A DNA stretch of 37,655 nucleotides from Candidatus Omnitrophota bacterium. Lineage in GTDB: Bacteria > Omnitrophota > Gorgyraeia > Duberdicusellales > 4484-171. The stretch covers positions 1-37,655 of the forward strand of contig CP070807.1 of the NCBI GenBank assembly GCA_020343695.1. The letters run 5' to 3'. Each line of letters opens with the position of its first letter. Positions within the stretch are counted from its first letter, which is position 1. This document shows, in pieces, positions 3,943-20,928 of this stretch. The position numbers were made by a program, and so were the translations under genes. The notes beneath the pieces are model-generated. The model was not told where the DNA came from. It did no database searches and saw only the letters and a list, made by a program, of their open reading frames with translations.

Positions 3943-3963
3943 CATAAGTTGTGCGCTCATTAA
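3943..3963 (+). repeat. 21-nt exact repeat CATAAGTTGTGCGCTCATTAA, copy 1
   Basis: Identical to the reverse complement of 28742-28762. It forms the 3' arm of the hairpin ACTTATG-N12-CATAAGT (3926-3951) and ends 2 nt before the ATG at 3966. Confidence 0.8.
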
Positions 3964-5090
3964 CGATGGAAGAAAAATTTGCGACTGCCCTCAGTGAAAG
4001 AGATGGTGAAGAGGCAATAAAGGAAATCTCTTTGAAAATAAAATCTGTATTTCCAACAGCCATACAGTATATTTTAGTCTTCTTCACCCATCACTATAAT
4101 CCGCTTAATGTCTTAAAAACGATAAACTTCACTCTGAGGCCAAGCATGATCATAGGAATTCAGACACCTTTTCTTGTTTTTGACGAGAGAATAATTGAAA
4201 AAGGAATCGGGGCATGCTGCCTGAATAAAAAAGGCATGGAGATAAAAGAAATTATTCTCAAGAGCGATGAACCACAGCGCATTGAGACATCTCTACATGC
4301 ATCATTCAAAAATGTGGCAGGAGAAAAAAAGTTCCTCTTTTCTTTTCTCACACATCACTTCAATCCTTCAAATTATATACGAGGCGTAGAGCTGGCCCTG
4401 GGCAAAACCTTTCCTCTTTTTGGAGGAGGGTATACACGACAACTTTCTTCCAGAAACTGCCAAGTGATAAGTACAACGGCAAAAGAAGGGATAATAAACA
4501 TTGTAGGGGCGGGGGCAGAGGTCACTACCCTCAAGATAGAGGGATTCGTACCGTTGGGAGAACCGTTGGTAATTAACCGCGTCATCAGTGAAAGCAATAT
4601 CATCATGGAGATAAACAACAAACCAGCAATAGATATTTATAAATATTTCCTTGAAGAAAAGTTTGAAATGTTCAAGAAACACTTCCTTTTTCCCCTCTAT
4701 CCCTTGGGCATAAAAGAAAATGGGACAATTCGCCTTCTCAATGTGACCGGTTACCTAGAAGATGGGTCCCTGGTATGTCTGGGAGAAGTGAAACAAGATT
4801 GCCAAGCGCACATTATGTTTCTTCACCCCCCTCATCTTTTTGCAACATTGGATAAACAAATAAAAGAAATCAAAAAAAAAGGGGGGGGAATTGTGTTGAT
4901 GATAAACTCACTTATACGAAAAAAGATGTTAAAAGACCGGGCTCAAGAAGAATTGCAATCAATAAAGAATGCGCTGGGAGAAGAATTCAAAATAATTGGA
5001 TTTTATTCTGATTACTCTATTTTTCCCAATGCTGAGACAAAAAAAATACATTGGGAAGCAGGTAATATTTTAATGACGGTGTGGAGATGA
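3951..5090 (+). CDS. putative sensory protein (FIST-like), first gene of the HK/RR cluster
   Basis: 379-aa soluble ORF that overlaps the downstream histidine kinase by 10 nt. Size and context fit FIST-domain proteins. Internal repeat of the motif FFTHHYNP / FLTHHFNP. The track start is GTG 3951; the ATG at 3966 is equally plausible. The FIST call is from memory and weak. Confidence 0.4.
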   Translation: MRSLTMEEKFATALSERDGEEAIKEISLKIKSVFPTAIQYILVFFTHHYNPLNVLKTINFTLRPSMIIGIQTPFLVFDERIIEKGIGACCLNKKGMEIKEIILKSDEPQRIETSLHASFKNVAGEKKFLFSFLTHHFNPSNYIRGVELALGKTFPLFGGGYTRQLSSRNCQVISTTAKEGIINIVGAGAEVTTLKIEGFVPLGEPLVINRVISESNIIMEINNKPAIDIYKYFLEEKFEMFKKHFLFPLYPLGIKENGTIRLLNVTGYLEDGSLVCLGEVKQDCQAHIMFLHPPHLFATLDKQIKEIKKKGGGIVLMINSLIRKKMLKDRAQEELQSIKNALGEEFKIIGFYSDYSIFPNAETKKIHWEAGNILMTVWR

Positions 5091-6562
5091 ATATCATAAA
5101 GTCTCTCATCTCTATGGATCCTCTTATTGGGACAGTTGCTTTGCTTCTGCTCGGAATTTTCTTTCTTGCAATCTACACGCTCACAAAAGTAAAAACCATT
5201 GCGATATTGAAGAAAAGCATAAATTATCTCAATCAAACGATCCAAGAATTAGACCACGAAGCAAAATTGATTATCAAAAGCGATGTGGAGTTAAAGCTCT
5301 ACCAAGAAGAGTCAGAAGATAAACTCAACAAACTCACTCTCCTTAAAAATCTTATTCTTTCCTCTCTGCGCATTTTGGACAAAGAACAACTTTTCGCGCA
5401 GATCAATGAAAAAATCATTAATGACTTGGGATTCAAGAGAGGCGCGATTATCAACCTGAATGATCAGGAGGTGAAATTAAATATTGGATTTCAAGAACAG
5501 GAAATGAAGCTCATCCAACGTGCATTTTTAGCCAAAAGGAATATACTGCAAACCACTCCTTTACTCTCTGCAGAACTCGAAACCTACAAAGAGCTAAGTT
5601 CCTCCCTACACCTCCAAGATTTTCTCATTGCTCCTGTTAAAGCACGAGAAAATGTTTATGCGATTTTTATCGTTACTGGACTTCTCATTCCAAGAGAAAT
5701 CAAACGTGCGGAGAAAGAAATATTTGCTATTATCTGCATGTATCTTGGGCAATGCTTAGATAACATCGACTTATTTGAAGAGCTCTATCGCGCCAAAGAC
5801 GATTTGGAGAAAAAGGTTAAGGAAAGAACAAATGAACTCGTCAAAAGCCTACGAGAAATTGAAACGATAAGTAAATTGAAGAGTGATTTTATCTCAAGTG
5901 TCTCCCATGAACTCAGAACACCTCTCACTTCTGTAAAAGGATTTTCGTCTCTCCTCGTAGAAGAAAAATTTGGAAAGTTACCACCTCAAGCCAAAGATCG
6001 ACTAGAAACAATCGATAAAAATGTAAATAAACTTGTTGATATGGTCAATATTCTCTTAGATATCTCACGTATTGAGTCAGGTAAAATTGAGGTAAAAATC
6101 TCCCCTTCCGACATAACCAAACTCATAAAAAGCGTGGTAGACTTCCTCTCTCCCCAAATACAATCAAGGCAACTAAAATTGGCTCTCGATGTTCCTGGGA
6201 GTTTAGCTGTCTATATGGACAAAGATCTCATCGAGAGAGTGCTTATCAATCTTATAAATAACGCAATCAAATTTACCCCTCCAGGCGGGATGATAACTGT
6301 AGGATGCAAGAAAGAAACTCGCAATGCGTTAATCTCTATCTCTGATACAGGGTGCGGAATAGAGAAAAACGATTTAGAAAAAGTATTTCAAGAATTCTTT
6401 CGCGTAGACAACCCTGTCAATCGGCAGCTCCAAGGAAGTGGATTAGGGCTCTCGCTGGTGAAGAGAATCATTGATACACACAAGGAAAAAATTTGGGTGG
6501 AGTCAGAAGCAGGCAAAGGAACGACGTTCCGCTTTACATTAAAGCTGAGTGAAAATGTATAG
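5081..6562 (+). CDS. sensor histidine kinase (TM + coiled-coil/GAF-like + HisKA + HATPase_c)
   Basis: 493 aa. N-terminal TM helix, H-box SHELRTPLTS, N-box NLINNAIKFT, G-boxes DTGCGI and GSGLGLSLV. Ends with a TAG stop. Confidence 0.85.
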   Translation: MEMNIIKSLISMDPLIGTVALLLLGIFFLAIYTLTKVKTIAILKKSINYLNQTIQELDHEAKLIIKSDVELKLYQEESEDKLNKLTLLKNLILSSLRILDKEQLFAQINEKIINDLGFKRGAIINLNDQEVKLNIGFQEQEMKLIQRAFLAKRNILQTTPLLSAELETYKELSSSLHLQDFLIAPVKARENVYAIFIVTGLLIPREIKRAEKEIFAIICMYLGQCLDNIDLFEELYRAKDDLEKKVKERTNELVKSLREIETISKLKSDFISSVSHELRTPLTSVKGFSSLLVEEKFGKLPPQAKDRLETIDKNVNKLVDMVNILLDISRIESGKIEVKISPSDITKLIKSVVDFLSPQIQSRQLKLALDVPGSLAVYMDKDLIERVLINLINNAIKFTPPGGMITVGCKKETRNALISISDTGCGIEKNDLEKVFQEFFRVDNPVNRQLQGSGLGLSLVKRIIDTHKEKIWVESEAGKGTTFRFTLKLSENV

Positions 6563-7484
6563 ATTAAAGATCCTTGTTGTCGACGATGATCCTGACATAT
6601 TGGATCTTCTGGTCGCGACACTGGAAACTTCATTTGAAGTAGTGACCGCATCGACAGGAAAGCAGACGCTGGAGAGAATAAGAGAGACTTCTCCTAATCT
6701 TTTAGTATTAGACTATGCACTTCCGGATATGCAGGGTCCTGAAATTTGCGGAATTTTACGAAAGGATCCTCTCTTTTTACACCTTCCCATTCTTATGCTC
6801 ACCGGTAAAGGCGAGATTGAAAACAAGGTAAAAGGGCTGGAATCAGGAGCAGATGATTACATGTTAAAACCGTTCTCCCCTCAAGAACTTACTGCCCGTA
6901 TAAGAATGCTCATAAGAAGATCTGATGTCCATCTAGACGCCAATCCCCTCACTCGCCTGCCAGGAAATGTCTCTATCAATAAGGAACTTGAGGAAAAAAT
7001 AAAGAGCAATGAGAAATGTGCAGTTCTTTTCATTGATATTGATAACTTTAAAGCCCTCAATGACTACTATGGATTTGAGAGAGGAGATGAAATCATTAAA
7101 AAGACTGCCCACACAATACTGGCTGCTGTCCAAGAAAAAGGTGCTATGGTTGAGTTTATCGGTCATATCGGTGGAGATGACTTCGTTGTGATCACACCGC
7201 CTCAAAACGCTGAGAGCATTGCGAAGGAAATAATAGATCAATTTGATAAAGCTGCTCCTCAATTTTTTAATAGAGAGGATAGAATAAGAGGGTACATCGA
7301 AACGAAAGATAGAGAAGGTCAAATACACCAATTTAAAATCCCCACCATCTCTATTGGGATAATCACAAATTTATATCGAGAGTTTACCCATACAGCCCAC
7401 ATCAGCTCTCTGGGTGCAGAAGCAAAGGCTCTTGCGAAAAAATTCCCCGAGAGCAAATATATATTTGACCGACGAGCCATCTAA
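6549..7484 (+). CDS. response regulator with REC + GGDEF-type (GGDDF) domain
   Basis: 311 aa. REC domain (LVVDDD, LLVLDYALPD, MLKPF) followed by a nucleotidyl-cyclase palm (IDIDNFKALNDYYGF, GGDDFVV). 14-nt overlap with the kinase gene. Confidence 0.85.
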   Translation: MKMYRLKILVVDDDPDILDLLVATLETSFEVVTASTGKQTLERIRETSPNLLVLDYALPDMQGPEICGILRKDPLFLHLPILMLTGKGEIENKVKGLESGADDYMLKPFSPQELTARIRMLIRRSDVHLDANPLTRLPGNVSINKELEEKIKSNEKCAVLFIDIDNFKALNDYYGFERGDEIIKKTAHTILAAVQEKGAMVEFIGHIGGDDFVVITPPQNAESIAKEIIDQFDKAAPQFFNREDRIRGYIETKDREGQIHQFKIPTISIGIITNLYREFTHTAHISSLGAEAKALAKKFPESKYIFDRRAI

Positions 7485-12289: not shown

Positions 12290-12982
12290 TTAAGGCTCAA
12301 AGGCAATTACAGAAACAGTCTGGTTATTCGGTATTGAATAATTGGGGTCATGTGTGGTAAGGACTATTTCGGCCTGCGTCCGTGTCGGTGGCGAATCGCT
12401 TCTAAAAGTTATCCTCGCCGAGCATGAAGCAGGATAGGAACCGGAAGTGCCTGTACATACTACAATGGGATTGCTCGTAAACTGATCACCAGGAAAATAG
12501 ATTGTCTTCACGCACCAGTTTTTTGTAGAGGCACAATCCCAGGTGTTATAATTCATAGGCAACCTCATTATCAGCATATTTTTTGCTTTAACTTTCCCAT
12601 GCACATCAAGGGCATAGTTTGAATCTGGATTGCGTGTGTTAATACCGACATTCTCTATACCCAGGGCAGGGTTAGGATACACATTATTTTCTGAACGGCT
12701 CCATAAGCCGCCTGCTCCTACCCCAACCCAACTGCCGCCATCACCATTACACACATAGACTTTTTTGTTGGTTTTATGATAGAACATATCTCCTTGCTTA
12801 TCGCACCGTAAACCTATATTTATATCATCTCTTGGATAAAGGCGCATCATCTTGTATCTTCCAAGCGCTGAAGGATAAAACGTGGTAAGGGTAATATTCT
12901 GTTCTTGGGCACAGCAGATACCCACAGAGGCCACTAACCCCACAAGAATAATTATTACACTTACCCAGCTATATCGCTTCAT
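12290..12982 (-). CDS. secreted LTT[YF]YP-motif fibre-like protein, type A (paralog 1)
   Basis: 230 aa with SD GAGGAG. Signal peptide ..VASVGICCA|QE, N-motif ITLTTFYPSALGRY, RLYP, C..GDMFY..VYVCNG..SW, VGINTRNPDSNYALDVHGKVKA, a 4-Cys C-domain (NPIVVC), and C-terminus VIAFEP. Confidence 0.8.
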   Translation of the reverse strand: MKRYSWVSVIIILVGLVASVGICCAQEQNITLTTFYPSALGRYKMMRLYPRDDINIGLRCDKQGDMFYHKTNKKVYVCNGDGGSWVGVGAGGLWSRSENNVYPNPALGIENVGINTRNPDSNYALDVHGKVKAKNMLIMRLPMNYNTWDCASTKNWCVKTIYFPGDQFTSNPIVVCTGTSGSYPASCSARITFRSDSPPTRTQAEIVLTTHDPNYSIPNNQTVSVIAFEP

Positions 12983-12993
12983 ACTGTTCTCCT

Positions 12994-13779
12994 CTACTCT
13001 GTCGCCTCAATGGCAATTATCTGAACCCACTTATCACCCACCATTGGAGACGAAACATATCGAGTAGTTCCAATACCTACTGTTACGTTCGTTCTGGTAA
13101 CACTCCTGATAGAACACATTACTCCTCCGTGCGGATTTTGCCTGCAGTGAGGCAGACCCCTGGGGTCAGTATCAAGACGCACTCGTGGCCCGGCATTACA
13201 CATCACAATCGGTGGCCTATCGAATGTTCTGCCAAAAGGTATGGTATAATCACATTGGATGCATTGAGGAGTTTGGTGGCAGAAGCGACCGATTGTACAA
13301 CATGTAGGAAGCCCCCCTAGATGTATTGCGGCAATGTTGTGTGCTTTAAATTTCCCCCCTACATGGAGGGCGTAATCGGGATCTAGAGTACCAATTCCCA
13401 CATAATCTACGCCCAGCGTAGGTTCAGGATAAAGGTCATTACCTGAAAGCGTCCAGTACGAATCTCCTCCCACTTCCTGCCAATTACTTCCGTCATATGC
13501 ATAGATGATATCGTCATCTTCATTGTAGTACATATCTCCTTCGGCTATCTTCCCAGGAGCAAGGTCTGGATCAGTTGCGTGATTAGTAGGAGAAAGCCTA
13601 AGCATTTTAAATTCACCGTAGGGGGCAGGGTAATAGGTAGTCAAAGAAATCTCGCCTTGGCCTTCTTGAGCAAAACACAGGCTACCTGCAACAGCCCACA
13701 GGAGAATGAATCCCAATGCGCAGACGAATTGCACGATATGTTGTACTTTTTTATTGCTCATTCTTTTTCCTACCTTCAT
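12994..13779 (-). CDS. secreted LTT[YF]YP-motif fibre-like protein, type A (paralog 2)
   Basis: 261 aa with SD GAAGGAAAA. Signal peptide ..AGSLCFA|QE, N-motif ISLTTYYPAPYGEF, RLSP, GDMYY..YDGSNW, VGIGTLDPDYALHVGGKFKA, a 10-Cys C-domain (PPIVMC), and C-terminus IIAIEATE. The start could be Met7. Confidence 0.8.
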   Translation of the reverse strand: MKVGKRMSNKKVQHIVQFVCALGFILLWAVAGSLCFAQEGQGEISLTTYYPAPYGEFKMLRLSPTNHATDPDLAPGKIAEGDMYYNEDDDIIYAYDGSNWQEVGGDSYWTLSGNDLYPEPTLGVDYVGIGTLDPDYALHVGGKFKAHNIAAIHLGGLPTCCTIGRFCHQTPQCIQCDYTIPFGRTFDRPPIVMCNAGPRVRLDTDPRGLPHCRQNPHGGVMCSIRSVTRTNVTVGIGTTRYVSSPMVGDKWVQIIAIEATE

Positions 13780-13817
13780 GCGTTTTCCTTCTATTTGTCC
13801 ATTTCTTGAGCGGTAAA

Positions 13818-14528
13818 TTACGGTTCAATCGCAATAATATGGATATCAATATTTCCCCCGATGTTGACGCTTGAAAAATGTTTTTGGGGATGTGAAGTGA
13901 GTGCGACCTCAACCGTGGTTTCTTGCCTGTGTGGATTTGTCGTTACTCTCTCTACTGCGCACCCCAACAATTGTCGACCGCCCCTTCCACCGGAAGCAGC
14001 CAGATTCACTGTGGGCGTACAGAACACCGCTGGATTTGTCATTATCTTAGAAAAGGTTATCGCATAATTGCGGCATATGGTTCTGTTGCAGCCAGCGACG
14101 GTCACCTTTTTTGCCGAAATACTACTCGCCTTCAATTTTCCATCCACGTCTAACTTGTAGCCTGCGGCTGGATTATCTGTTCCTATTCCCACATTCCAAT
14201 TGGTATCCTCCAGATAAAGATCATCTCCTTTAAGCTGCCATAACGAACCTGCTCCCAGAGGTACCCAGGAAGTTCCGTTACATAACAATACTTGATCAAG
14301 ACTTTCACGGTAATACATTGCACCCTCATTAACAGCAGAACAATCTGCATCTGTAGGAGCTTCTGCGTCAGAGATAGGGTGCAGTTTTAATACTTCATAG
14401 ACTCCATAGGGGGCAGGATAGAAAGTGGTAAGGGTGAGTTTATCTGGGTCGCCTTGGGCAAGGCAGATAATAGGCAAAAACCCTAAAAAAACGACAAAAA
14501 TCGCAATCCCTATTTTACACCGTGGCAT
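13818..14528 (-). CDS. secreted LTT[YF]YP-motif fibre-like protein, type A (paralog 3)
   Basis: 236 aa with SD GGGGGGA. Signal peptide ..LPIICLA|QG, N-motif LTLTTFYPAPYGVY, KLHP, C..GAMYY..LLCNGTSW, VGIGTDNPAAGYKLDVDGKLKA, a 4-Cys C-domain (NPAVFC), and C-terminus IIAIEP. Confidence 0.8.
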   Translation of the reverse strand: MPRCKIGIAIFVVFLGFLPIICLAQGDPDKLTLTTFYPAPYGVYEVLKLHPISDAEAPTDADCSAVNEGAMYYRESLDQVLLCNGTSWVPLGAGSLWQLKGDDLYLEDTNWNVGIGTDNPAAGYKLDVDGKLKASSISAKKVTVAGCNRTICRNYAITFSKIMTNPAVFCTPTVNLAASGGRGGRQLLGCAVERVTTNPHRQETTVEVALTSHPQKHFSSVNIGGNIDIHIIAIEP

Positions 14529-14557
14529 TTCATCCCCCCATTTGGCTTAACCATATA

Positions 14558-14586
14558 TATATACCATATATCTGCTTATTTATCAA
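14558..14586 (-). promoter_or_regulatory. candidate internal promoter for the type A genes (TTGATA-17-TATATA)
   Basis: Minus strand -35 at 14586-14581, a 17-nt spacer, and -10 at 14563-14558 lying inside a (TA)5 tract. It sits in the only sizeable gap (210 nt) within the island. Confidence 0.35.
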
Positions 14587-14738
14587 GAGGACATACCACC
14601 TTACCAGAAAATGCTTATATATTATAAGAGAATATTAACCAAATCGCTTTGCAAGAGATATAAAGGGGGATTCTAAGGGTGGGCCTGCTGAGATACGATA
14701 TTGAAGGTATTATTAGAGGGTAAGAAATCAATAAACAA

Positions 14739-15548
14739 TCACTGCAGTTGGGTACAAATTAAACCAATCCGCCTGATTCTTCCGGAAAAATGGTTACAGG
14801 ACCAGGGGCAACCGCCAACAGCATACAGTCTTACTCCTGTGACCACATGGTTGGCAGGACAATCCACATCGGCGCCTACGATGATGTTACCTCCGCTGGT
14901 TCTGCCATTCGATCTAAGAAAACCAGATAACACTTCTTGGCAATCTGGCCCTACTGCTCCTCCTCCCAAATCCTGACACTGGCCAATTTGACCGCCACCG
15001 CCCCCACCTAACGGGACCCAGCTAACACCATTATGATATTTCAATATCTCCTCATCGCCATCGTAATAGAGAGCTCCTTCCACTGAGTGGACAGACGTAG
15101 AGGATGGTCGCAGGCGCAGAACATTAGCGATTTCTAAATCAGTATAGGGTGACCTAGCAAGCTCGACACTCACGCCGCCCTCAACAAGGAGTCCATTTGA
15201 AGGAGCTGTTCTTGCTCCTGCATACCCTGAACCAATGACTGCCCCGCCAGAAACAGCGAGTTTGCCTTGAGGGGTGTTTGTGCCAATTCCCATAGTTCCG
15301 GCAATCCAGACCTCTCCGGGATTGGTGCTGGGATCAGGAGCATCATTGCGGCGAATCCTTGTATCTACAACATTATCTCCTACCCCTAAAGTACCCAACA
15401 CGAGCCGGCGATATACACCTCGAGAAGAAGGATAAAAGGTAGTAAACGTTAAATTCTCCTCCTCACAAAATACTGAGTCAGAAAGAAAACCCACGAAGGC
15501 AGAAGTGCATATCACAATTGCACAACAGTGAAAAAGTAATTTTCTCAT
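14739..15548 (-). CDS. secreted LTT[YF]YP-motif fibre-like protein, type B (paralog 4)
   Basis: 269 aa with SD GGAGG. Signal peptide, then N-motif LTFTTFYPSSRGVY, DAPDPSTNPGEVWIAG, MGIGTNTPQGKLAVSGGAVIGSGYAG, GLLVEG, LRLRP, GALYYDGDEEILKYHNGVSWVPL, a Gly run, and the terminal 4-Cys module CPANHVVTGVRLY..CPWSC..IGLIC. Confidence 0.8.
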   Translation of the reverse strand: MRKLLFHCCAIVICTSAFVGFLSDSVFCEEENLTFTTFYPSSRGVYRRLVLGTLGVGDNVVDTRIRRNDAPDPSTNPGEVWIAGTMGIGTNTPQGKLAVSGGAVIGSGYAGARTAPSNGLLVEGGVSVELARSPYTDLEIANVLRLRPSSTSVHSVEGALYYDGDEEILKYHNGVSWVPLGGGGGGQIGQCQDLGGGAVGPDCQEVLSGFLRSNGRTSGGNIIVGADVDCPANHVVTGVRLYAVGGCPWSCNHFSGRIRRIGLICTQLQ

Positions 15549-15567
15549 CCTTACTGCCTCCTCTAAA

Positions 15568-16407
15568 TCAGTTCTCGAACGGAAAACAATCTATACCAAT
15601 ACGCCGAATGCTGATATAGTCTGAGCCGCACGAACCATCACAGTGATTCTGAGTATAAAATCTTAGTCCTGCCATGACTTCCCCATTTGGACAGCTCAGT
15701 TGCGCACCTACATAGGTTGACTCCCGGCGATTATCTGCTGCTGAAGGCCTCTGGCAGCAAGGGTCACCATCGCTTGCAGGATTTCCAGAGGTATTAGCAC
15801 GCTGCTCAGCTGTAGGGGGTAGTGAGCTTATAGGCACCCATGCTGTCCCATTAAAGTATTTAAAAACATCCTCACCTTCATCATAATACATAGCTCCCCT
15901 CCAAGTCTGAGGAGGTGAAGCAAGAGGCGGTTGTCTCACTGGGGTCAGTCGCACAGTATTATTGACTTCTAAATCAGCGCGAGGGCTTGGTGCAGATGTA
16001 CCAATAGCAAAATTGCCATCAATTAATAATCCCTCTGAGGGAGCTGTCCGAATTCCTGCATACCCTGAACCAATGACCACTCCTCCAGCAACATCTAATT
16101 TATTCTGAGGATTTGTTGTGTCAATTCCCACATTGCCAGCAATCCAGACATCTCCAGGATTGGTGGCGGGGTCTGGTATATCGCTATCGCCTATACCTCC
16201 GCCATCAATGTCTCCTATTCCTAATACGTTTGTGGCAAATCGATTATACACACCGACTGGAGCAGGGTAGTATGTGGTGAGGGAAATTTCTCCTGGTTCC
16301 TGGCTGAAGACTGAAAGAGATGCAAGCATAACCAAAGAAAATGTGAAAATCGACAAAAGATGAAACACTATTCTTCTTCTCATGCTTGCTCTCCCTTTAC
16401 AGTTCAT
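15568..16407 (-). CDS. secreted LTT[YF]YP-motif fibre-like protein, type B (paralog 5)
   Basis: 279 aa, with its ATG overlapping the paralog 6 stop (ATGA). N-motif ISLTTYYPAPVGVY, DIPDPATNPGDVWIAG, VGIDTTNPQNKLDVAGGVVIGSGYAG, a second AIGTSAPSPRADLEV repeat, GAMYYDEGEDVFKYFNGTAWVPI, and the terminal CPNGEVMAGLRFY..CDGSC..IGIDC. Confidence 0.8.
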   Translation of the reverse strand: MNCKGRASMRRRIVFHLLSIFTFSLVMLASLSVFSQEPGEISLTTYYPAPVGVYNRFATNVLGIGDIDGGGIGDSDIPDPATNPGDVWIAGNVGIDTTNPQNKLDVAGGVVIGSGYAGIRTAPSEGLLIDGNFAIGTSAPSPRADLEVNNTVRLTPVRQPPLASPPQTWRGAMYYDEGEDVFKYFNGTAWVPISSLPPTAEQRANTSGNPASDGDPCCQRPSAADNRRESTYVGAQLSCPNGEVMAGLRFYTQNHCDGSCGSDYISIRRIGIDCFPFEN

Positions 16408-17210
16408 TGCACCTCTCTACAAGTCAAACCAATATTATGTATCTCCGGTCCTGAAATGCTGCAGGATGACGGACAGGTATTATCAGTGTATAGCCGTATT
16501 TGAGTGGCCACATACCCTGGAGGACACCACACCTCAGTAGCAAGGTGTAAGCTACCCACTGGACTGCCCTCAACCCAAGGGCTCTTGATATTTGTAGATG
16601 GCCCTAATTGGCCACCCATGCTTATTTCTTTCCAACCTTCATTATCATGGTATTTGATAACATTGTTGGGGCCGTTATAATAAAGACCTCCTCTTACGCC
16701 TTGAGGCTCTGCTTGGGGATCTAAAGGGGGTGGTGTGAATGGCGTTAATTGCAAAGTTTCATCTACTTCCAAATTCGCTCCTGGATTTATCGTTTTAATT
16801 CCAACATTACCCTCAACCAACAACCCATTCCCTGGAGGTGCGTTGGCTCCTGCATACCCTGAACCAATGACCACGCCTCCGGCAACATCTAATTTGTTCT
16901 GAGGTGGGTTATTCTGAGGCTCTTCGATGCCAATTCCCACATTGCCAGTAATCCAGACATCTCCCTGTTGCGCAACTATTTCAGGGTCAGGAGCATCTGA
17001 AGCATCTAATCCCTCTATGGCAGCATTATCACCCACACCTAAGGCACCGGTGAACAACCGGTCATAGACTCCATAAGGGGCAGGATAGTAGGTAGTGAGG
17101 CTAATCGTTCCCCCTTCGTCTTCTTGAGCAAAACAGAGACCAAGAGGGGCAACAAAAATCCCAAGAGAAATCCACAAAATTGTAACTATTCTGTATCTAC
17201 GTCTCCCCAT
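16404..17210 (-). CDS. secreted LTT[YF]YP-motif fibre-like protein, type B (paralog 6)
   Basis: 268 aa with SD AAGGAAG. Signal peptide ..PLGLCFA|QE, N-motif ISLTTYYPAPYGVY, VWITGNVGIGIEEPQNNPPQNKLDVAGGVVIGSGYAG, VGIKTINPGANLEV, GGLYYNGPNNVIKYHDNEGW, and the terminal CPPGYVATQIRLY..CPSSC..IGLTC. Confidence 0.8.
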   Translation of the reverse strand: MGRRRYRIVTILWISLGIFVAPLGLCFAQEDEGGTISLTTYYPAPYGVYDRLFTGALGVGDNAAIEGLDASDAPDPEIVAQQGDVWITGNVGIGIEEPQNNPPQNKLDVAGGVVIGSGYAGANAPPGNGLLVEGNVGIKTINPGANLEVDETLQLTPFTPPPLDPQAEPQGVRGGLYYNGPNNVIKYHDNEGWKEISMGGQLGPSTNIKSPWVEGSPVGSLHLATEVWCPPGYVATQIRLYTDNTCPSSCSISGPEIHNIGLTCREVQ

Positions 17211-17242
17211 ATATTTTCTTCCTTTTCTTTTCCTTTAAATAT

Positions 17243-17271
17243 AGCATATCTGGTGCTATTTTTCAAGTCAA
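17243..17271 (-). promoter_or_regulatory. sigma70-like promoter of the paralog island (TTGACT-17-TATGCT)
   Basis: Minus strand -35 at 17271-17266, a 17-nt spacer, and -10 at 17248-17243. It lies in the 99-nt gap upstream of paralog 6. Confidence 0.45.
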
Positions 17272-17309: not shown

Positions 17310-18458
17310 TTAGCTATTTTCTAACCTTTCTCTTGAAATCCCGATATCTACAACAAAAATCTTCCCGCGACACTTTGGTCCTTGACTTAAGAAAAATCCT
17401 TGTTTGGGGGCAATGAAAGTAACAGTGTAATCTGCTCTGATTGCCTCTCCCAACACAACTCCTTGATCAGGTGCAAGTCCTGAAGGAATATCGCAGGAAA
17501 TAATTTTCTTTCCGCTTTTGTTTATCAAAGCAATCACTTCTCTCAAATAGCCGGACACCTCTCCTTTTACGCCAATCCCTAAAATTCCCTCTACAATACA
17601 ATCTTTCTTTTTCACAATGCGCTTGAGTTCGCCGATATTGGTACTGTTGATGCTGTGAATGGGTAGTTCCATCTTTTCTAAGGTATTTTTTTGAAACAAT
17701 GCTTCTTGACCAAGAGGTTTTTCCTCTAGCACGACAACGTCGACATTGTAGCCTTGCCCTTGTAACTTACGCGCGCAACTCAGCACATCAGCACCATTAT
17801 TTCCCCTTCCAGCAACAACCAAAATGTCGGTGCCCAAATGGAGACTATCAATGACCGCAAAAAGATTACTGGAAGCATTCTCAATGAGAATCCTCTCCTC
17901 TAAGCCAAGAACTTTTGCCTTTCTCTCAAGTGCACGTATCCTTTCAACTGAAAGACTCTTTAATGCCAAGCGGGCCTGCTCTTTCACCGCATCAAACTGC
18001 GGCCTCTGCAGGTCCAATACACACGCATCAGCTCTCTTTCGTATCTTCTCTAAAAATGGGTCACTTATTACTGACATCGTTCCTACTATCTTTTTCTTTT
18101 CAAGTAACTGACAGACTATCTGTTTAAATGCAGAAGAAAAAAGTTCCATCTTTCCTAACTCATCGATTACCACATACTCAACTCTTCCTTTGAGGGCCTG
18201 CTGTAATTCTTTTACTGCAACTTCATCAAACTTTCCTACATCTACCCCATATTTTGAAACTCTATGAGGAGATGAAAAACGCATATGAGCAAAGACAGTC
18301 TCTTTCCCGTTTAGTGTTGTTACTTTAAACCCGACTCTTGATCCTTTTTCCTTTATCTCTTCAGTGAAAAAGCCCTCTGCTTTTGGGATGAAATTGAGGA
18401 GTTCTTTAATGAAGGTGGTCTTTCCGCAGGAAGGTTTGCCGGCGATAAAAAGGTGCAT
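17310..18458 (-). CDS. fusion protein: THEP1/NTPase_1-type nucleoside triphosphatase + YjeF_N (NAD(P)HX epimerase) domain
   Basis: 382 aa. The N-half has the P-loop GKPSCGKTT, GFKVTTLNG and Walker B VVIDELGKME, as in THEP1/MJ1559. The C-half has ENASSNL, VVAGRGNNGADV and DIPSGL, as in YjeF N-terminal domains. Confidence 0.7.
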   Translation of the reverse strand: MHLFIAGKPSCGKTTFIKELLNFIPKAEGFFTEEIKEKGSRVGFKVTTLNGKETVFAHMRFSSPHRVSKYGVDVGKFDEVAVKELQQALKGRVEYVVIDELGKMELFSSAFKQIVCQLLEKKKIVGTMSVISDPFLEKIRKRADACVLDLQRPQFDAVKEQARLALKSLSVERIRALERKAKVLGLEERILIENASSNLFAVIDSLHLGTDILVVAGRGNNGADVLSCARKLQGQGYNVDVVVLEEKPLGQEALFQKNTLEKMELPIHSINSTNIGELKRIVKKKDCIVEGILGIGVKGEVSGYLREVIALINKSGKKIISCDIPSGLAPDQGVVLGEAIRADYTVTFIAPKQGFFLSQGPKCRGKIFVVDIGISRERLENS

Positions 18459-18485: not shown

Positions 18486-19460
18486 CTAGTGAGGGTCTTT
18501 TCCTTTCTTTTTCTTCTTCTTAAAAAGATCGAGAAATCTGTCTTCATATTCCTTGTATACATTCCAATGGTCAAGCTCATCTTTCAGCTTATTTGCCTTT
18601 GTAATGTCCGTTCTTGCCTCTTTGATGAGATTTTCTATCTTTTCTCTCGCTGATTGCGGGAGTTTGGTGTAGGTAGCTAAATCTTTCTTTATCTTGTCGA
18701 TATCCTCCTCGCTTAAAGGGCCAGTACCTGCAGCTTGTTCCTCTCCTTTGATATGACTTATGAGTTTATCAATCTCTTCTTCAACAAATTTTCCTCTCTC
18801 CTGGAGCGGAGAAAGATTCAACTTCAACTGAAGATGTTCACTCACCACCTTTAATACGTTCGCACACGCCTTGGGGTTTTCTATTTGGACAGTGTAGAAA
18901 GGGATCTCCCCTAAAAGGCAGACACCTTTTATGCCTTTTCTTTTAGCTGTTCCCAAAACAATTCCGTTGAGTCCGCTGATTTGCCCTTTCTTCAAAACTT
19001 TTAATTTAAATTTCTTAAATTCTTGCAATACATCTTCGTGAGTTGCTGCAATCCATACTAAAGAATCGTTCTTATGATCAATGGCCTCTGGTTTGGCAGC
19101 AAAGGTAAAGATAAACTGTACCTTATATTTTTTAAGAAAATCAACGATTGCAAATGCAAGCGTCTCAGCGTATTCTAAAGGAGGCTGTGCTTCTCCCAAA
19201 AAGAGAACCATGTCAGGGCAATTTTCTCCCTTTAAATAATAAAAGAATCCTGCCGGGAGGCTGGGAAGATCGATTTCGCCCTTCTCTACGGTAACCGCTG
19301 CTGGCCGAAAGAATTCCTCTGCCTCCAGTTTCGCAAACATTTTAAACCCCATAGCCTCTCTTAAAAAAAGTACGCTCCTGTAGGCTACTTCTCCCATTCC
19401 TGGCCAAGCGGCAATGAGAATAGGATTTTTTAATTTTGGGGCAACTATTTCTTTAATCAT
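18486..19460 (-). CDS. PAC2-family (proteasome assembly chaperone-like) protein with coiled-coil, Lys-rich tail
   Basis: 324 aa. The N-terminus KNPILIAAWPGMGEVAYRS and overall size resemble PAC2-family proteins. Call is from memory. Confidence 0.5.
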   Translation of the reverse strand: MIKEIVAPKLKNPILIAAWPGMGEVAYRSVLFLREAMGFKMFAKLEAEEFFRPAAVTVEKGEIDLPSLPAGFFYYLKGENCPDMVLFLGEAQPPLEYAETLAFAIVDFLKKYKVQFIFTFAAKPEAIDHKNDSLVWIAATHEDVLQEFKKFKLKVLKKGQISGLNGIVLGTAKRKGIKGVCLLGEIPFYTVQIENPKACANVLKVVSEHLQLKLNLSPLQERGKFVEEEIDKLISHIKGEEQAAGTGPLSEEDIDKIKKDLATYTKLPQSAREKIENLIKEARTDITKANKLKDELDHWNVYKEYEDRFLDLFKKKKKKGKDPH

Positions 19461-20766: not shown

Positions 20767-20928
20767 AAAAAACCCTGCCTCCAGTCCGTCACAGGCCGGC
20801 TGCTATCAGTCCTTTTCCCATACAGGTGGGCGCCGCATCCTTCTTGCCTCGGCAAGAAGGAGATTTGGCTCCCGTGTTGATGATGTTGGCTGTAGCACTT
20901 TACCTGTCGACGGGACAGGCAGGGTTCT
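20767..20928 (-). ncRNA. ~160-nt rod-shaped structured RNA with 6S-RNA-like architecture
   Basis: - Closing stem: AACCCUGCCU/AGGCAGGGUU plus GUCC-C-GUC-G-ACAGG/CCUGU-GAC-GGAC.
- Second helix: GCUACAGCC/GG-A-CUG-A-UAGC.
- Central bubble of about 14/15 nt.
- Terminal helix GGGAGCC/GGCGCCC, capped by the perfect hairpin UCCUUCUUGC-CGAG-GCAAGAAGGA.
- A U6 tract follows directly after the closing stem. Confidence 0.5.

What the first reader, a model, noticed from the sequence alone, without database searches (positions are those of the whole stretch)
12290..17210. Six tandem paralogous secreted proteins sharing an invariant post-signal-peptide LTT[YF]YP motif: candidate undescribed surface-fibre/adhesin system
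Six consecutive minus-strand ORFs (230-279 aa) each have a strong Shine-Dalgarno. Each opens with a classical signal peptide ending ..C[FL]A|Q[EG] (five of six have a Cys near the cleavage site).

Five to ten mostly acidic residues later, all six carry the same motif: [IL][ST][LF]TT[YF]YP[AS]xxGx[YF]. Examples are ISLTTYYPAPYGVY, LTLTTFYPAPYGVY and ITLTTFYPSALGRY. A motif fixed at the mature N-terminus is what one expects of an assembly, anchoring or donor-strand element rather than of an enzyme.

Downstream they contain VGIGTxxPxxKLDVxG and GxMYY-x(8-10)-G..W motifs. I recall these from phage tail-fibre-like and trimeric fibre proteins, but that is recollection, not a search. The proteins end in variable Cys-rich domains.

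Cysteines appear and disappear in pairs between paralogs. The pair flanking GxMYY is present in 12290-12982 and 13818-14528, and both members are absent in 12994-13779. This argues for disulfides, and so for an extracytoplasmic location.

The island has its own promoter (17243-17271). Paralogs 6 and 5 overlap by ATGA. The flanks are housekeeping genes with their own promoters. No pilus, usher, sortase, secretion-ATPase, phage or mobile-element genes are nearby. I cannot place the family in any named group.
Basis: partly seen in the sequence, partly recalled or inferred. Interest (0 to 1): 0.85.

Follow-up and report, generated by a model that had tools for sequence, protein, structure and literature searches.

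The report
Secreted fibre adhesins with TTYYP tag
Six neighbouring genes encode short, secreted, tail-fibre-like proteins that all begin with the same near-invariant "TTYYP" tag; thousands of unannotated proteins of two little-known bacterial phyla carry this tag, and in other genomes one of them sits directly in front of a radical-SAM protein-maturation operon.

Summary
Six minus-strand genes (12290-17210) each encode a signal peptide followed by [IL][ST][LF]TT[YF]YP[AS]xxGx[YF], tail-fibre-type motifs and a Cys-rich variable end.

- **Family.** The motif is the core of a 19-residue module, E-x-[ILV]-T-[LI]-T-T-Y-Y-P-[SA]-P-x-G-x-Y-x-x-L. It always lies at the N-terminus, in at least 4,409 protein clusters.
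- **Distribution.** Named members are almost all Omnitrophota or Elusimicrobiota. There were no hits in 2.9 million viral contigs, and no Pfam, NCBIfam or PADLOC model matches.
- **Closest known relatives.** The stalk is homologous to the Bdellovibrio MAT predator fibres (PDB 8OND, E=1.6e-9). Other family members carry Peptidase_S74 and YadA-head domains, which mark trimeric fibres.
- **Best reading.** These are a tandem repertoire of short MAT-like surface fibres with a lineage-specific conserved base and diversified tips.
- **New lead.** In other genomes a TTYYP gene lies immediately upstream of hxsD, hxsC, hxsB and an HxsA-like gene. That held in 23 of 117 loci found through the motif, and in 4 of 5 testable loci found through HxsD, including Ca. 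Velamenicoccus archaeovorus.

Whether the tag is modified by, or docks to, that system is unproven. I could not check whether this window's genome encodes Hxs.

The parts
16404..17210 (-). Paralog 6 (type B, 268 aa): signal peptide, TISLTTYYPAPYGVY, two GNVGIGT..KLDV stalk motifs, GGLYY..W hairpin and a 4-Cys tip
   Evidence: AF2 model (mean pLDDT 65; stalk region 70-85)
15568..16407 (-). Paralog 5 (type B, 279 aa); its start overlaps the stop of paralog 6 by ATGA
14739..15548 (-). Paralog 4 (type B, 269 aa), motif NLTFTTFYPSSRGVY
13818..14528 (-). Paralog 3 (type A, 236 aa): signal peptide, KLTLTTFYPAPYGVY, Cys-flanked GAMYY..W hairpin, one NVGIGT..KLDV motif and a variable tip ending IIAIEP
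   Evidence: AF2 model (mean pLDDT 61.5; tip below 50)
12994..13779 (-). Paralog 2 (type A, 261 aa); lacks the Cys pair around GDMYY; 8-Cys tip
12290..12982 (-). Paralog 1 (type A, 230 aa), motif NITLTTFYPSALGRY
17064..17098 (-). DNA encoding the core of the TTYYP tag in paralog 6. The equivalent segments in the other five genes are 16246-16280, 15411-15445, 14397-14431, 13609-13643 and 12854-12888.
   Evidence: 6 matches, 0 expected by chance
17238..17271 (-). Promoter-like hexamers upstream of paralog 6 (TTGACT-17-TATGCT and TTGAAA-17-TATATT with TG)
   Evidence: Consensus match only; such sites are not enriched over shuffles in this region.
14529..14738 (-). 210-bp AT-rich gap separating the type B trio from the type A trio. 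The other gaps are 11, 38, 19 and -4 bp. A second transcription start here is possible, but no consensus promoter was called.

Best explanation
The island encodes six paralogous, Sec-exported, disulfide-stabilised short fibres of the MAT / tail-fibre-like kind, most likely trimeric.

**Layout of each protein**
- A cleavable signal peptide.
- The conserved TTYYP module at or within about 5-10 residues of the mature N-terminus.
- A short stalk built from GNVGIGTxxPxxKLDV beta-helix cap motifs and a GxMYY...W hairpin.
- A divergent Cys-rich tip.

**Proposed mechanism (inferred)**
- The invariant N-terminal module is the cell-proximal end. It is recognised by one conserved partner of the Omnitrophota/Elusimicrobiota envelope, either a docking site or a maturation enzyme.
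- That arrangement would let every family member be mounted in the same way.
- The variable tips would bind different ligands on host or prey cells or on particles.
- Tandem duplication, plus reshuffling of stalk modules between types A and B, diversifies the repertoire.

**What is shown and what is inferred**
- Shown: gene structure, motif conservation, family size and taxonomic range, stalk homology to MAT fibres, and absence from viral contigs.
- Inferred: trimerisation, surface exposure, adhesin function and the role of the tag.
For: - **Genes and motif.** establish the six genes, the motif, the signal-peptide features and the even Cys counts.
- **Modularity of the tag.** Searches show the same tag directly after a signal peptide in many Omnitrophota and Elusimicrobia proteins with unrelated C-terminal parts, including complete proteins of 70-114 aa.
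- **Family size.** One search found 4,409 representative clusters at E<=1e-3. The match was always at residues ~1-60, in proteins of 63-619 aa.
- **Taxonomy.** Nearly all are labelled Omnitrophota, Elusimicrobiota or Planctomycetia/Planctomycetales MAGs. In 134 ORFs the motif sits mostly 23-45 residues from the start, and farther where my ORF caller picked an upstream start.
- **Conservation.**, on 375 distinct sequences, gave E 85%, T 91%, P 99%, G 99%, Y 99% and L 74% at positions that were not used to select the sequences.
- **Fibre homology.** In some searches the profiles of both subfamilies hit Bdellovibrio MAT fibres: Bd2133 (8OND) at E=1.6e-9 and 2.9e-6, and Bd3182 (8OJN) at 1.3e-5.
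- **Trimeric-fibre domains in relatives.** One search found Peptidase_S74 in four of ten other TTYYP proteins and YadA_head in one.
- **Published parallel.** (PMC10769870) describes MAT fibres as having a conserved N-terminal end that binds an unknown predator surface element, plus swapped adhesive tips.
- **Not phage or defence.** One search gave 0 viral-contig hits and one search gave no defence-model hits.
Against: - No experimental or structural proof of trimerisation or surface exposure exists. AF2 monomer models are poor (mean pLDDT 61-65), with the tag region and the tips at low confidence. Foldseek found nothing significant.
- The six proteins are 230-279 aa. Bdellovibrio MATs are roughly 600-1,100 aa.
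- The homology to MATs rests on a short repeated cap motif.
- None of the six has an S74 or other recognised tip domain.
- No route across the outer membrane is identified.
- Five of the six lack the family's near-invariant Glu at position -5.
- No close orthologues of the island were found, so conservation of the array itself is untested.
Confidence: 0.58

Rival explanations
1. The TTYYP module is mainly a recognition or modification site for Hxs-type radical-SAM maturases, involving N-terminal processing or a covalent change on Thr or Tyr before export. The six proteins would then be trans-acting clients of an Hxs operon encoded elsewhere in the genome, much as many scattered sulfatases depend on one anaerobic sulfatase maturase. 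This is compatible with the proteins being fibres; it differs only in what the tag is for.
For: - **From the motif side.** In 23 of 117 motif-selected loci from both phyla, the TTYYP gene is followed by HxsD (TIGR03976, 67.5 bits against a cutoff of 50) and HxsB (TIGR03978, 478 bits against 370).
- **From the HxsD side.** In 4 of 5 testable loci a TTYYP gene lies 1-66 bp upstream of HxsD. These include the closed Ca. Velamenicoccus archaeovorus genome, which has two copies.
- **Diverse partners.** The adjacent TTYYP proteins have unrelated C-terminal parts, so the link is to the tag rather than to one tip type.
- **Direction.** A CxxxCxxC ORF lies within 2.5 kb downstream in 21 of 114 loci, against 6 upstream.
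- **Second arrangement.** In Elusimicrobia loci L008 and L042, TTYYP genes are followed directly by an HxsC-like radical-SAM gene with no HxsD.
- **Precedent (PMC13128918).** HxsB, HxsC and HxsD are needed for N-terminal processing and periplasmic accumulation of a signal-peptide-bearing protein.
- **Elusimicrobia members.** They have a conserved extension before the hydrophobic segment and a poor signal-peptidase site (..CWHPGxxGSE|T).
Against: - These operons already contain an obvious cognate substrate: an HxsA3-like His-x-Ser repeat protein downstream of HxsB.
- The TTYYP proteins have no HxS repeats.
- No radical-SAM gene lies in this window.
- I could not show that this genome encodes Hxs at all.
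- One HxsD locus, L123, has no TTYYP gene.
- Adjacency shows functional coupling, not a substrate relationship.
Confidence: 0.25
2. The proteins are envelope defence components rather than adhesins. They could be tail-fibre mimics or periplasmic barriers that work with an HXS-like antiphage system.
For: - The classic HXS system is an antiphage system with a periplasmic effector.
- TTYYP genes are linked to Hxs operons.
- The proteins have tail-fibre-like modules.
Against: - No PADLOC match was found for the six proteins.
- The island and the Hxs-linked loci sit among housekeeping genes in conserved synteny, such as GalT-Gap-MalQ-TTYYP-HxsD in L119, L121 and L122. They are not in mobile defence islands.
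- The very large paralog numbers and swapped adhesin-type tips fit ligand recognition better.
Confidence: 0.08
3. The proteins are subunits of a polymeric pilus-like fibre, with the N-terminal strand ITLTTYY acting as a donor strand.
For: - A conserved beta-strand-like segment lies at the mature N-terminus, with alternating hydrophobic residues.
- Many family members are small, at 70-115 aa.
Against: - No usher, chaperone, sortase or pilus-assembly gene lies near any of the loci inspected.
- No prepilin motif is present.
- Family members carry S74 and YadA-head domains typical of individual trimeric fibres.
- The stalk is homologous to MAT trimers.
Confidence: 0.06
4. The island is a remnant of prophage or tailocin tail-fibre genes.
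For: Weak PHROG matches to tail-fibre families (best E=4e-4, short stretches only).
Against: - All six proteins have signal peptides.
- No phage genes occur in the 37.6-kb window.
- The motif has 0 hits in 2.9 million viral contigs.
- The family is taxon-restricted and chromosomal.
Confidence: 0.03

Closest known systems
MAT (mosaic adhesive trimer) fibre superfamily of Bdellovibrio bacteriovorus (Caulton et al. 2024, PMC10769870; PDB 8OND, 8OJN, 8OL4, 8ON4, 8OML)
   Same: - Multi-paralog repertoire of secreted tail-fibre-like proteins.
- Conserved N-terminal end with swapped variable C-terminal tips.
- Shared GNVGIGTxAPxxKLxV stalk motif (E=1.6e-9).
- S74-terminated and non-S74 members both occur in the wider TTYYP family.
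- Found in lineages with predatory or epibiotic members. One Omnitrophica MAT is already listed in that paper's Table S3.
   Different: - Three to four times shorter (230-279 aa).
- The N-terminal end here is a 19-residue linear tag directly after the signal peptide, and it is restricted to Omnitrophota and Elusimicrobiota. Homology to the Bdellovibrio MAT N-domain was not tested.
- The tips are small Cys-rich domains with no recognised fold.
- Family members are genetically linked to Hxs radical-SAM operons, which has not been reported for MATs.
HXS antiphage system: HxsA, HxsB, HxsC and HxsD (Li et al. 2026, PMC13128918; TIGR03976-03979)
   Same: - In other genomes, TTYYP genes are operon neighbours of bona fide HxsD and HxsB, HxsC-like radical-SAM enzymes and an HxsA3-like repeat protein.
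- HxsA is likewise a signal-peptide protein whose N-terminal processing depends on the radical-SAM enzymes.
   Different: - The six proteins have no His-x-Ser repeats and no peptidoglycan-binding domain.
- No hxs genes lie in this window.
- The gene order is TTYYP-HxsD-(74 aa)-HxsC-HxsB-HxsA3, against HxsD-B-C-A in the classic system.
- The classic system is 99.7% Pseudomonadota and often mobile. Here it sits in conserved housekeeping synteny.
Phage tail fibres and tailspikes with an endosialidase-type intramolecular chaperone (Peptidase_S74, PF13884)
   Same: Same stalk repeat vocabulary. Relatives that share the tag end in S74.
   Different: - Cellular and Sec-exported.
- No phage context.
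- Absent from viral contigs.
- The six window proteins lack S74.
Trimeric autotransporter adhesins (YadA/UspA1 type)
   Same: Fibre adhesins of diderm bacteria. A YadA_head repeat was found in one TTYYP protein.
   Different: Trimeric autotransporters are anchored by a C-terminal beta-barrel. The TTYYP proteins have none, and their conserved end is N-terminal.
Anaerobic sulfatase maturase with its sulfatase substrates (established knowledge, used as an analogy only)
   Same: One radical-SAM/SPASM enzyme acts on many scattered exported paralogs through a short motif just after the signal peptide. This would be the logic if the tag is an Hxs target.
   Different: No evidence yet of any modification in TTYYP proteins. 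The motif chemistry (Thr, Tyr, Pro, Gly) is unrelated to C/SxPxR.

Membership tests
MAT fibre superfamily | Stalk homologous to the solved MAT beta-helix regions | tested here: met
   Profile A6 against PDB hit 8OND (Bd2133) at E=1.6e-9 and 8OJN (Bd3182) at 1.3e-5. Profile A5 hit 8OND at 2.9e-6. The match runs through short repeated cap motifs only.
MAT fibre superfamily | Mosaic build: conserved presentation end and diversified tip | tested here: met
   The N-terminal tag is invariant and the tips are divergent among the six proteins and across the family.
MAT fibre superfamily | Trimeric fibre | not testable with these tools
   Only monomer AF2 was available. Indirect support comes from Peptidase_S74 and YadA_head domains in tag-sharing relatives.
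MAT fibre superfamily | N-terminal domain homologous to that of Bdellovibrio MATs | not tested
No Bdellovibrio record appeared among the 117 motif loci, but that scan was truncated.
MAT fibre superfamily | Typical size of about 600-1,100 aa, with a long projecting stalk | tested here: not met
   The six proteins are 230-279 aa.
MAT fibre superfamily | Exposure on the cell surface | not testable with these tools
   Only signal-peptide heuristics and even Cys counts are available.
HxsA-type substrate of the HXS radical-SAM system | His-Xaa-Ser repeats | tested here: not met
   0-1 HxS triplets per protein. No NCBIfam HxsA model hit.
HxsA-type substrate of the HXS radical-SAM system | Encoded next to hxsB, hxsC and hxsD | tested here: not met
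   No radical-SAM or HxsD gene lies in the 37.6-kb window. The feature is met for other members of the TTYYP family in other genomes.
Phage or prophage tail fibre | Phage structural genes nearby, or the family occurring in viral genomes | tested here: not met
   The flanks are housekeeping genes. The motif gave 0 hits in viral contigs. Only weak, short PHROG matches were found.
Bacterial lipoprotein | Lipobox [LVI][ASTVI][GAS]C at the end of the signal peptide | tested here: not met
   No lipobox in any of the six. The Cys is followed by FAQE, LAQG or CAQE and is not conserved across the family.
Type IV pilin or pseudopilin | Prepilin leader G|F/M-x-x-x-E before the hydrophobic helix | tested here: not met
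   Absent. The conserved motif lies after the hydrophobic segment, not before it.
Chaperone-usher or type V pilin | Adjacent chaperone/usher genes or a lipoprotein-type pilin precursor | tested here: not met
   No such genes lie in the window or in the related loci inspected.

The most novel reading that the evidence does not exclude
The TTYYP module is a previously unrecognised N-terminal sorting or maturation signal. An Hxs-type radical-SAM system (HxsD, HxsC and HxsB, perhaps through its matured His-x-Ser peptide) would process, modify or anchor a whole repertoire of trimeric fibres in Omnitrophota and Elusimicrobiota. That would make it a radical-SAM-dependent surface-protein display system. 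The six genes here would be its trans-acting clients.
Probability: 0.2. Interest if true: 0.9.

Novelty: new variant of a known kind. Interest (0 to 1): 0.72.

Why it matters
**What is known about these phyla.** Omnitrophota and Elusimicrobiota are widespread and almost entirely uncultured. Many are ultra-small and host-dependent or predatory. How they recognise partners is unknown beyond type IV pili and giant ORFs.

**What this family offers.**
- It is very large, at 4,409 or more clusters at 50% identity.
- One near-invariant 19-residue N-terminal tag is fused to swappable adhesin-like tips.
- That makes it a strong candidate for their recognition repertoire.
- It gives a simple sequence handle for finding every member in a genome.

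**Open question it bears on.** The Bdellovibrio MAT work left open what the conserved N-terminal end binds to. Here the tag is genetically tied to a defined operon (Hxs), which makes the question experimentally approachable.

**If the link is enzymatic.** It would extend a radical-SAM protein-maturation system, so far known only as an antiphage device in Proteobacteria, to cell-surface biogenesis in other phyla.

Tried and rejected
- **Family libraries.** Pfam, NCBIfam and PADLOC gave no hits for the six proteins. PHROGs gave only weak, short tail-fibre matches.
- **Full-length homology search.** A profile of all six found only 8 foreign hits. The two subfamilies align poorly, and the word-index search is restrictive.
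- **N-terminal profile in the word-index search.** It returned only proteins of 114 aa or less. This looks like a length filter in the tool, so I took the length distribution instead.
- **AF2 and Foldseek.** Monomer models were of low to moderate confidence, and Foldseek against PDB gave nothing significant. I ran no further search on such models.
- **Looking for HxsD in the window's own genome.** I looked for hits with contig length 1,820,594 in an HxsD search. None appeared in the top 120 of 755. This is not evidence of absence.
- **Contig look-ups.** An exact look-up of a window protein returned nothing on record. Cluster look-up showed only singleton clusters from an NCBI record.
- **Metagenome scan.** A search for orthologues of paralog 6 found one distant relative, at 40% identity over the N-terminal half. 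Synteny of the island could therefore not be surveyed.
- **Literature.**
  - The string TTYYP returned one irrelevant paper.
  - HxsA2, HxsA3, HxsA4 and HxsC4 returned none.
  - Elusimicrobia + Omnitrophica + radical SAM + signal peptide returned none.
  - Two Omnitrophota genome papers do not mention the family.
- **Readings rejected.** Lipoprotein and prepilin readings fail the motif tests. The prophage reading fails on context and on the viral scan.
- **Resemblance not pursued.** The tag loosely resembles the PqqA Glu...Tyr cross-link motif (E-[IV]-T-L-..Y). This is from memory, the spacing differs, and I treat it as a curiosity only.

Full report
**1. Checking the observation**

A degenerate DNA pattern for [LFV]TT[YF]YP[AS]xxGx[YF] matches six times in the 37.6-kb window, once in each ORF. 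None is expected from 100 shuffles. In the six-way alignment TT.YP..G is invariant.

Other details also hold:
- Every start codon is preceded by a purine-rich Shine-Dalgarno-like sequence.
- Genes 6 and 5 overlap by ATGA.
- Intergenic gaps are 19, 210, 38 and 11 bp.
- Each N-terminus has 2-5 K/R residues, a strongly hydrophobic 12-residue stretch and a small-residue cleavage-type site (CFA|QE and similar). The motif begins at residues 33-47.
- No SignalP was available, so the signal peptides are heuristic calls. No canonical lipobox or prepilin motif is present.
After the predicted signal peptide the proteins have 6, 8, 6, 6, 6 and 4 cysteines, all even numbers, which fits disulfides in an exported protein.

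The promoter-like hexamers at 17238-17271 exist. Such sites are no commoner in this region than in shuffled sequence, so they carry little weight.

The six proteins fall into two trios. Type A is genes 1-3 and type B is genes 4-6. They use the same modules in a different order. In type A the GxMYY...W hairpin precedes the single VGIGT motif. In type B it follows two VGIGT motifs.

**2. Genomic context**

Everything else in the window is housekeeping:
- upstream half of the window: NfeD/SPFH, FIST, a histidine kinase with a GGDEF response regulator, and Rex;
- beside the island: an AIR-synthase-like protein, metallo-beta-lactamase-fold proteins, an NTPase-YjeF_N fusion, a PAC2 protein, MgsA and 6S RNA;
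- downstream half of the window: PheST, TrkAH, IF3, ThrRS and the F-type ATPase operon.

There are no phage, pilus, secretion or radical-SAM genes. The record is an NCBI genome with a 1,820,594-base contig and no relatives at 90% identity or above in the collection.

**3. The N-terminal motif defines a large, taxon-restricted family**

Pfam, NCBIfam and PADLOC have no model for these proteins.

*Family size and shape.* A profile of the first ~60 residues retrieves many proteins with the same layout: a signal peptide ending ..A|EE, then ITLTTYYP[AS]P[YF]GxY. Their C-terminal parts are otherwise unrelated, and they include complete proteins of only 70-114 aa. An exhaustive HMMER search of 1.84 billion representative proteins finds 4,409 clusters at E<=1e-3. 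The match is always at residues ~1-60 of proteins 63-619 aa long.

Nearly all are labelled Candidatus Omnitrophota, Elusimicrobiota or uncultured Planctomycetia/Planctomycetales MAGs. There is one TA06 record and one obvious chance hit in a Lacticaseibacillus.

*Conservation.* Across 375 distinct sequences the conserved core is E(85%)-x-[ILV]-T(91%)-[LI]-T-T-Y-Y-P-[SA]-P(99%)-[YF]-G(99%)-[V]-Y(99%)-x-x-L(74%). The alanine-rich positions just before the Glu suggest signal-peptidase cleavage there. The module would then be the extreme N-terminus of the mature protein; this is an inference.

*Other points.* Tandem pairs and triplets occur in several other genomes. The same pattern has no match in 2.9 million viral contigs. 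The window's own proteins are somewhat atypical: only gene 4 keeps the Glu at -5, and gene 3 has Asp there.

From the best partial matches and the CFAQE-type signal ends, the window organism is probably an Omnitrophota member. This is inferred, not shown.

**4. What the rest of the protein is**

Profiles of both subfamilies hit solved structures of the Bdellovibrio bacteriovorus MAT (mosaic adhesive trimer) fibres. Bd2133 (8OND) scores E=1.6e-9 and 2.9e-6, and Bd3182 (8OJN, 8ONB, 8ONC) scores 1.3e-5. Bd2439 and Bd1334 give weaker matches. The hits run through the GNVGIGTxAPxxKLxV motifs of the trimeric beta-helix.

Ten other TTYYP-tagged proteins were scanned against Pfam:
- four end in the Peptidase_S74 intramolecular chaperone of trimeric tail fibres;
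- one has YadA-head repeats;
- one has weak UspA1 and Peptidase_G2 matches;
- one has a Hint/PT-HINT domain.

The MAT paper describes 21 paralogs in one predator, split into S74 and non-S74 groups. [quoted passage not shown] It also reports swapped adhesive tips. Its supplementary table already lists one 713-aa Omnitrophica protein as a MAT.

The window proteins therefore look like very short MAT-like fibres. AF2 monomer models were only moderately confident in the stalk (pLDDT 70-85). They were poor in the tag region and in the Cys-rich tips. Foldseek found nothing significant, as expected for a monomer model of an obligate oligomer. The tips have no detectable relatives outside the six paralogs.

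**5. An unexpected genetic link**

*From the motif side.* I clustered all ORFs in the 117 motif loci. The commonest neighbour of a TTYYP gene is a ~145-aa protein found in 23 loci, followed by a ~485-aa protein in 19 loci and radical-SAM proteins in 16 loci. All lie downstream on the same strand, in both phyla. NCBIfam identifies them as follows:
- HxsD (TIGR03976, 67.5 bits against a cutoff of 50);
- HxsB, a radical-SAM/SPASM maturase (TIGR03978, 478 bits against 370);
- HxsC-like enzymes that score below their cutoffs.

*From the HxsD side.* An HxsD profile retrieved 755 hits. The named ones among the top 120 are mostly Omnitrophota and Elusimicrobia. In 4 of 5 loci where the upstream side could be read, a TTYYP gene lies 1-66 bp upstream of hxsD. 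One of these is the closed genome of Ca. Velamenicoccus archaeovorus (CP019384.1), which has two copies. One Elusimicrobiota locus lacks a TTYYP gene.

*Other observations.* The adjacent TTYYP proteins have quite different C-terminal parts, so the link is with the tag rather than with one tip type. A CxxxCxxC ORF lies within 2.5 kb downstream in 21 of 114 loci, against 6 upstream. In Elusimicrobia loci L008 and L042, one to three TTYYP genes are followed directly by an HxsC-like enzyme with no HxsD.

*The caveat that matters.* These operons also encode a genuine HxsA-type substrate downstream of HxsB. It is a 90-108-aa protein with a Lys-rich N-terminus, a hydrophobic segment and His-x-Ser repeats. 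NF038309 (HxsA3) scores 39 bits against a cutoff of 65, and the repeats are obvious by eye. The radical-SAM enzymes therefore do not need the TTYYP protein as a substrate.

The only experimental work on Hxs (PMC13128918) shows that HxsB, HxsC and HxsD mature a signal-peptide-bearing HxsA. Maturation involves non-canonical N-terminal processing and a +8 Da modification, after which HxsA acts in the periplasm against phage DNA entry. That system is 99.7% Pseudomonadota, with gene order D-B-C-A.

Why a TTYYP gene is kept at the head of the operon in two other phyla is unexplained. It could be a second client of the enzymes. It could be a fibre that docks on the matured His-x-Ser peptide. It could simply be a co-regulated partner.

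I could not determine whether the window's genome has an hxs operon.

**6. Most likely mechanism**

Best supported, at about 0.58: the island encodes six Sec-exported, disulfide-stabilised, probably trimeric short fibres. The common N-terminal module is recognised by one conserved envelope partner, and the divergent tips bind different ligands. This is a MAT-like recognition repertoire expanded by tandem duplication and module shuffling.

The main alternative concerns what the tag is for. It may be a site of Hxs-type radical-SAM processing or modification (about 0.25). That is compatible with the proteins being fibres.

The other rivals rank lower:
- a defence role (about 0.08) is weakened by the housekeeping synteny and the lack of defence-model hits;
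- a donor-strand pilus (about 0.06) is weakened by the absence of assembly genes and the presence of trimeric-fibre domains;
- a prophage remnant (about 0.03) is weakened by the signal peptides and the empty viral scan.

**7. Novelty and verdict**

The fibre body is a new, unusually short variant of a known kind: MAT or tail-fibre-like adhesins. The TTYYP N-terminal module appears undescribed. No Pfam or NCBIfam model covers it. The literature I could search does not mention it. Its association with Hxs operons also appears unreported.

I score interest at 0.72. The family is very large, sharply defined and taxon-restricted, and it lies in lineages where partner recognition is an open problem. 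The Hxs link makes the long-standing question of what holds the conserved end of such fibres testable.

The most novel reading not excluded is radical-SAM-dependent display of a fibre repertoire. I give it a probability of about 0.2.

Noticed in passing
L119 8983-15062 (Ca. Velamenicoccus archaeovorus CP019384.1); also L121, L122, L124, L080, L015, L089, L090 and L099: The operon is conserved as TTYYP protein (1-2 copies), HxsD, a ~74-aa protein, an HxsC-like radical-SAM enzyme, HxsB, an HxsA3-like His-x-Ser repeat protein, and a ~265-aa secreted Cys-rich protein. In Velamenicoccia-type loci it lies in conserved synteny after GalT-GalT-Gap-MalQ.
   Followed up: yes
L119 10380-10604; L121 5402-5623; L122 5380-5604; L124 5043-5282; L125 451-675: A conserved 73-79-aa ORF lies immediately after, and often overlaps, hxsD. 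It ends ..LEWANYLFYLNKTS or similar. NCBIfam gave no hit for the L119 copy, and the gene tables show no Pfam hit for any of the five.
   Followed up: partly
L015, L041, L066, L082, L087, L089, L090, L099, L103 and others (Elusimicrobia): Elusimicrobia TTYYP proteins carry a conserved extension before the hydrophobic segment (ME..xIVIEFxLTRRKAL..LFFLCWHPGxxGSE|TLTLTTYYPAPYGGY). Their signal-peptidase -3/-1 site is poor, which hints at non-canonical N-terminal processing.
   Followed up: partly
L004, L041, L066, L077, L082, L087, L089, L090, L103, L118: A ~129-aa protein (..FPSYFGxNWDALLDCLRSLPEF..) recurs in these loci. In most of them it lies immediately upstream of the Hxs-linked TTYYP gene. 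It has no NCBIfam hit.
   Followed up: no
L008 and L042 (Elusimicrobia): One to three tandem TTYYP genes are followed within ~50-60 bp by a 276-aa HxsC-like radical-SAM gene, then a ~440-480-aa ORF that I did not annotate, then a further HxsC-like gene. No HxsD is present.
   Followed up: partly
P0245 (503 aa, found in the representative search): This TTYYP-tagged protein has Hint/PT-HINT (pretoxin) domains. The tag may therefore also be used on toxin-delivery-type proteins.
   Followed up: no
window 12290-14528 versus 14739-17210: The two paralog trios use the same modules in a different order. The GxMYY..W hairpin comes before the single VGIGT cap in type A and after the two VGIGT caps in type B. 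This points to module shuffling rather than simple duplication.
   Followed up: partly
window 20768-20928 (-): A 6S RNA (RF00013, 51.9 bits against a gathering score of 46.4) lies between the mgsA-like gene and pheT.
   Followed up: no
window 17310-18458 (-) and 18486-19460 (-): Immediately upstream of the island lie a fused NTPase_1 + YjeF_N protein and a PAC2-family (proteasome-assembly-chaperone-like) protein with a Lys-rich tail.
   Followed up: no
window 3951-7484 (+): Three genes with overlapping ends encode a FIST-domain protein, a histidine kinase and a response regulator with a GGDEF domain.
   Followed up: no
L123 (Elusimicrobiota, JGI 3300029288): An HxsD homologue (218 aa) is surrounded by at least seven radical-SAM genes. 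It is preceded by a 402-aa Lys/Glu-rich protein instead of a TTYYP gene, so this is a different Hxs-like arrangement.
   Followed up: no
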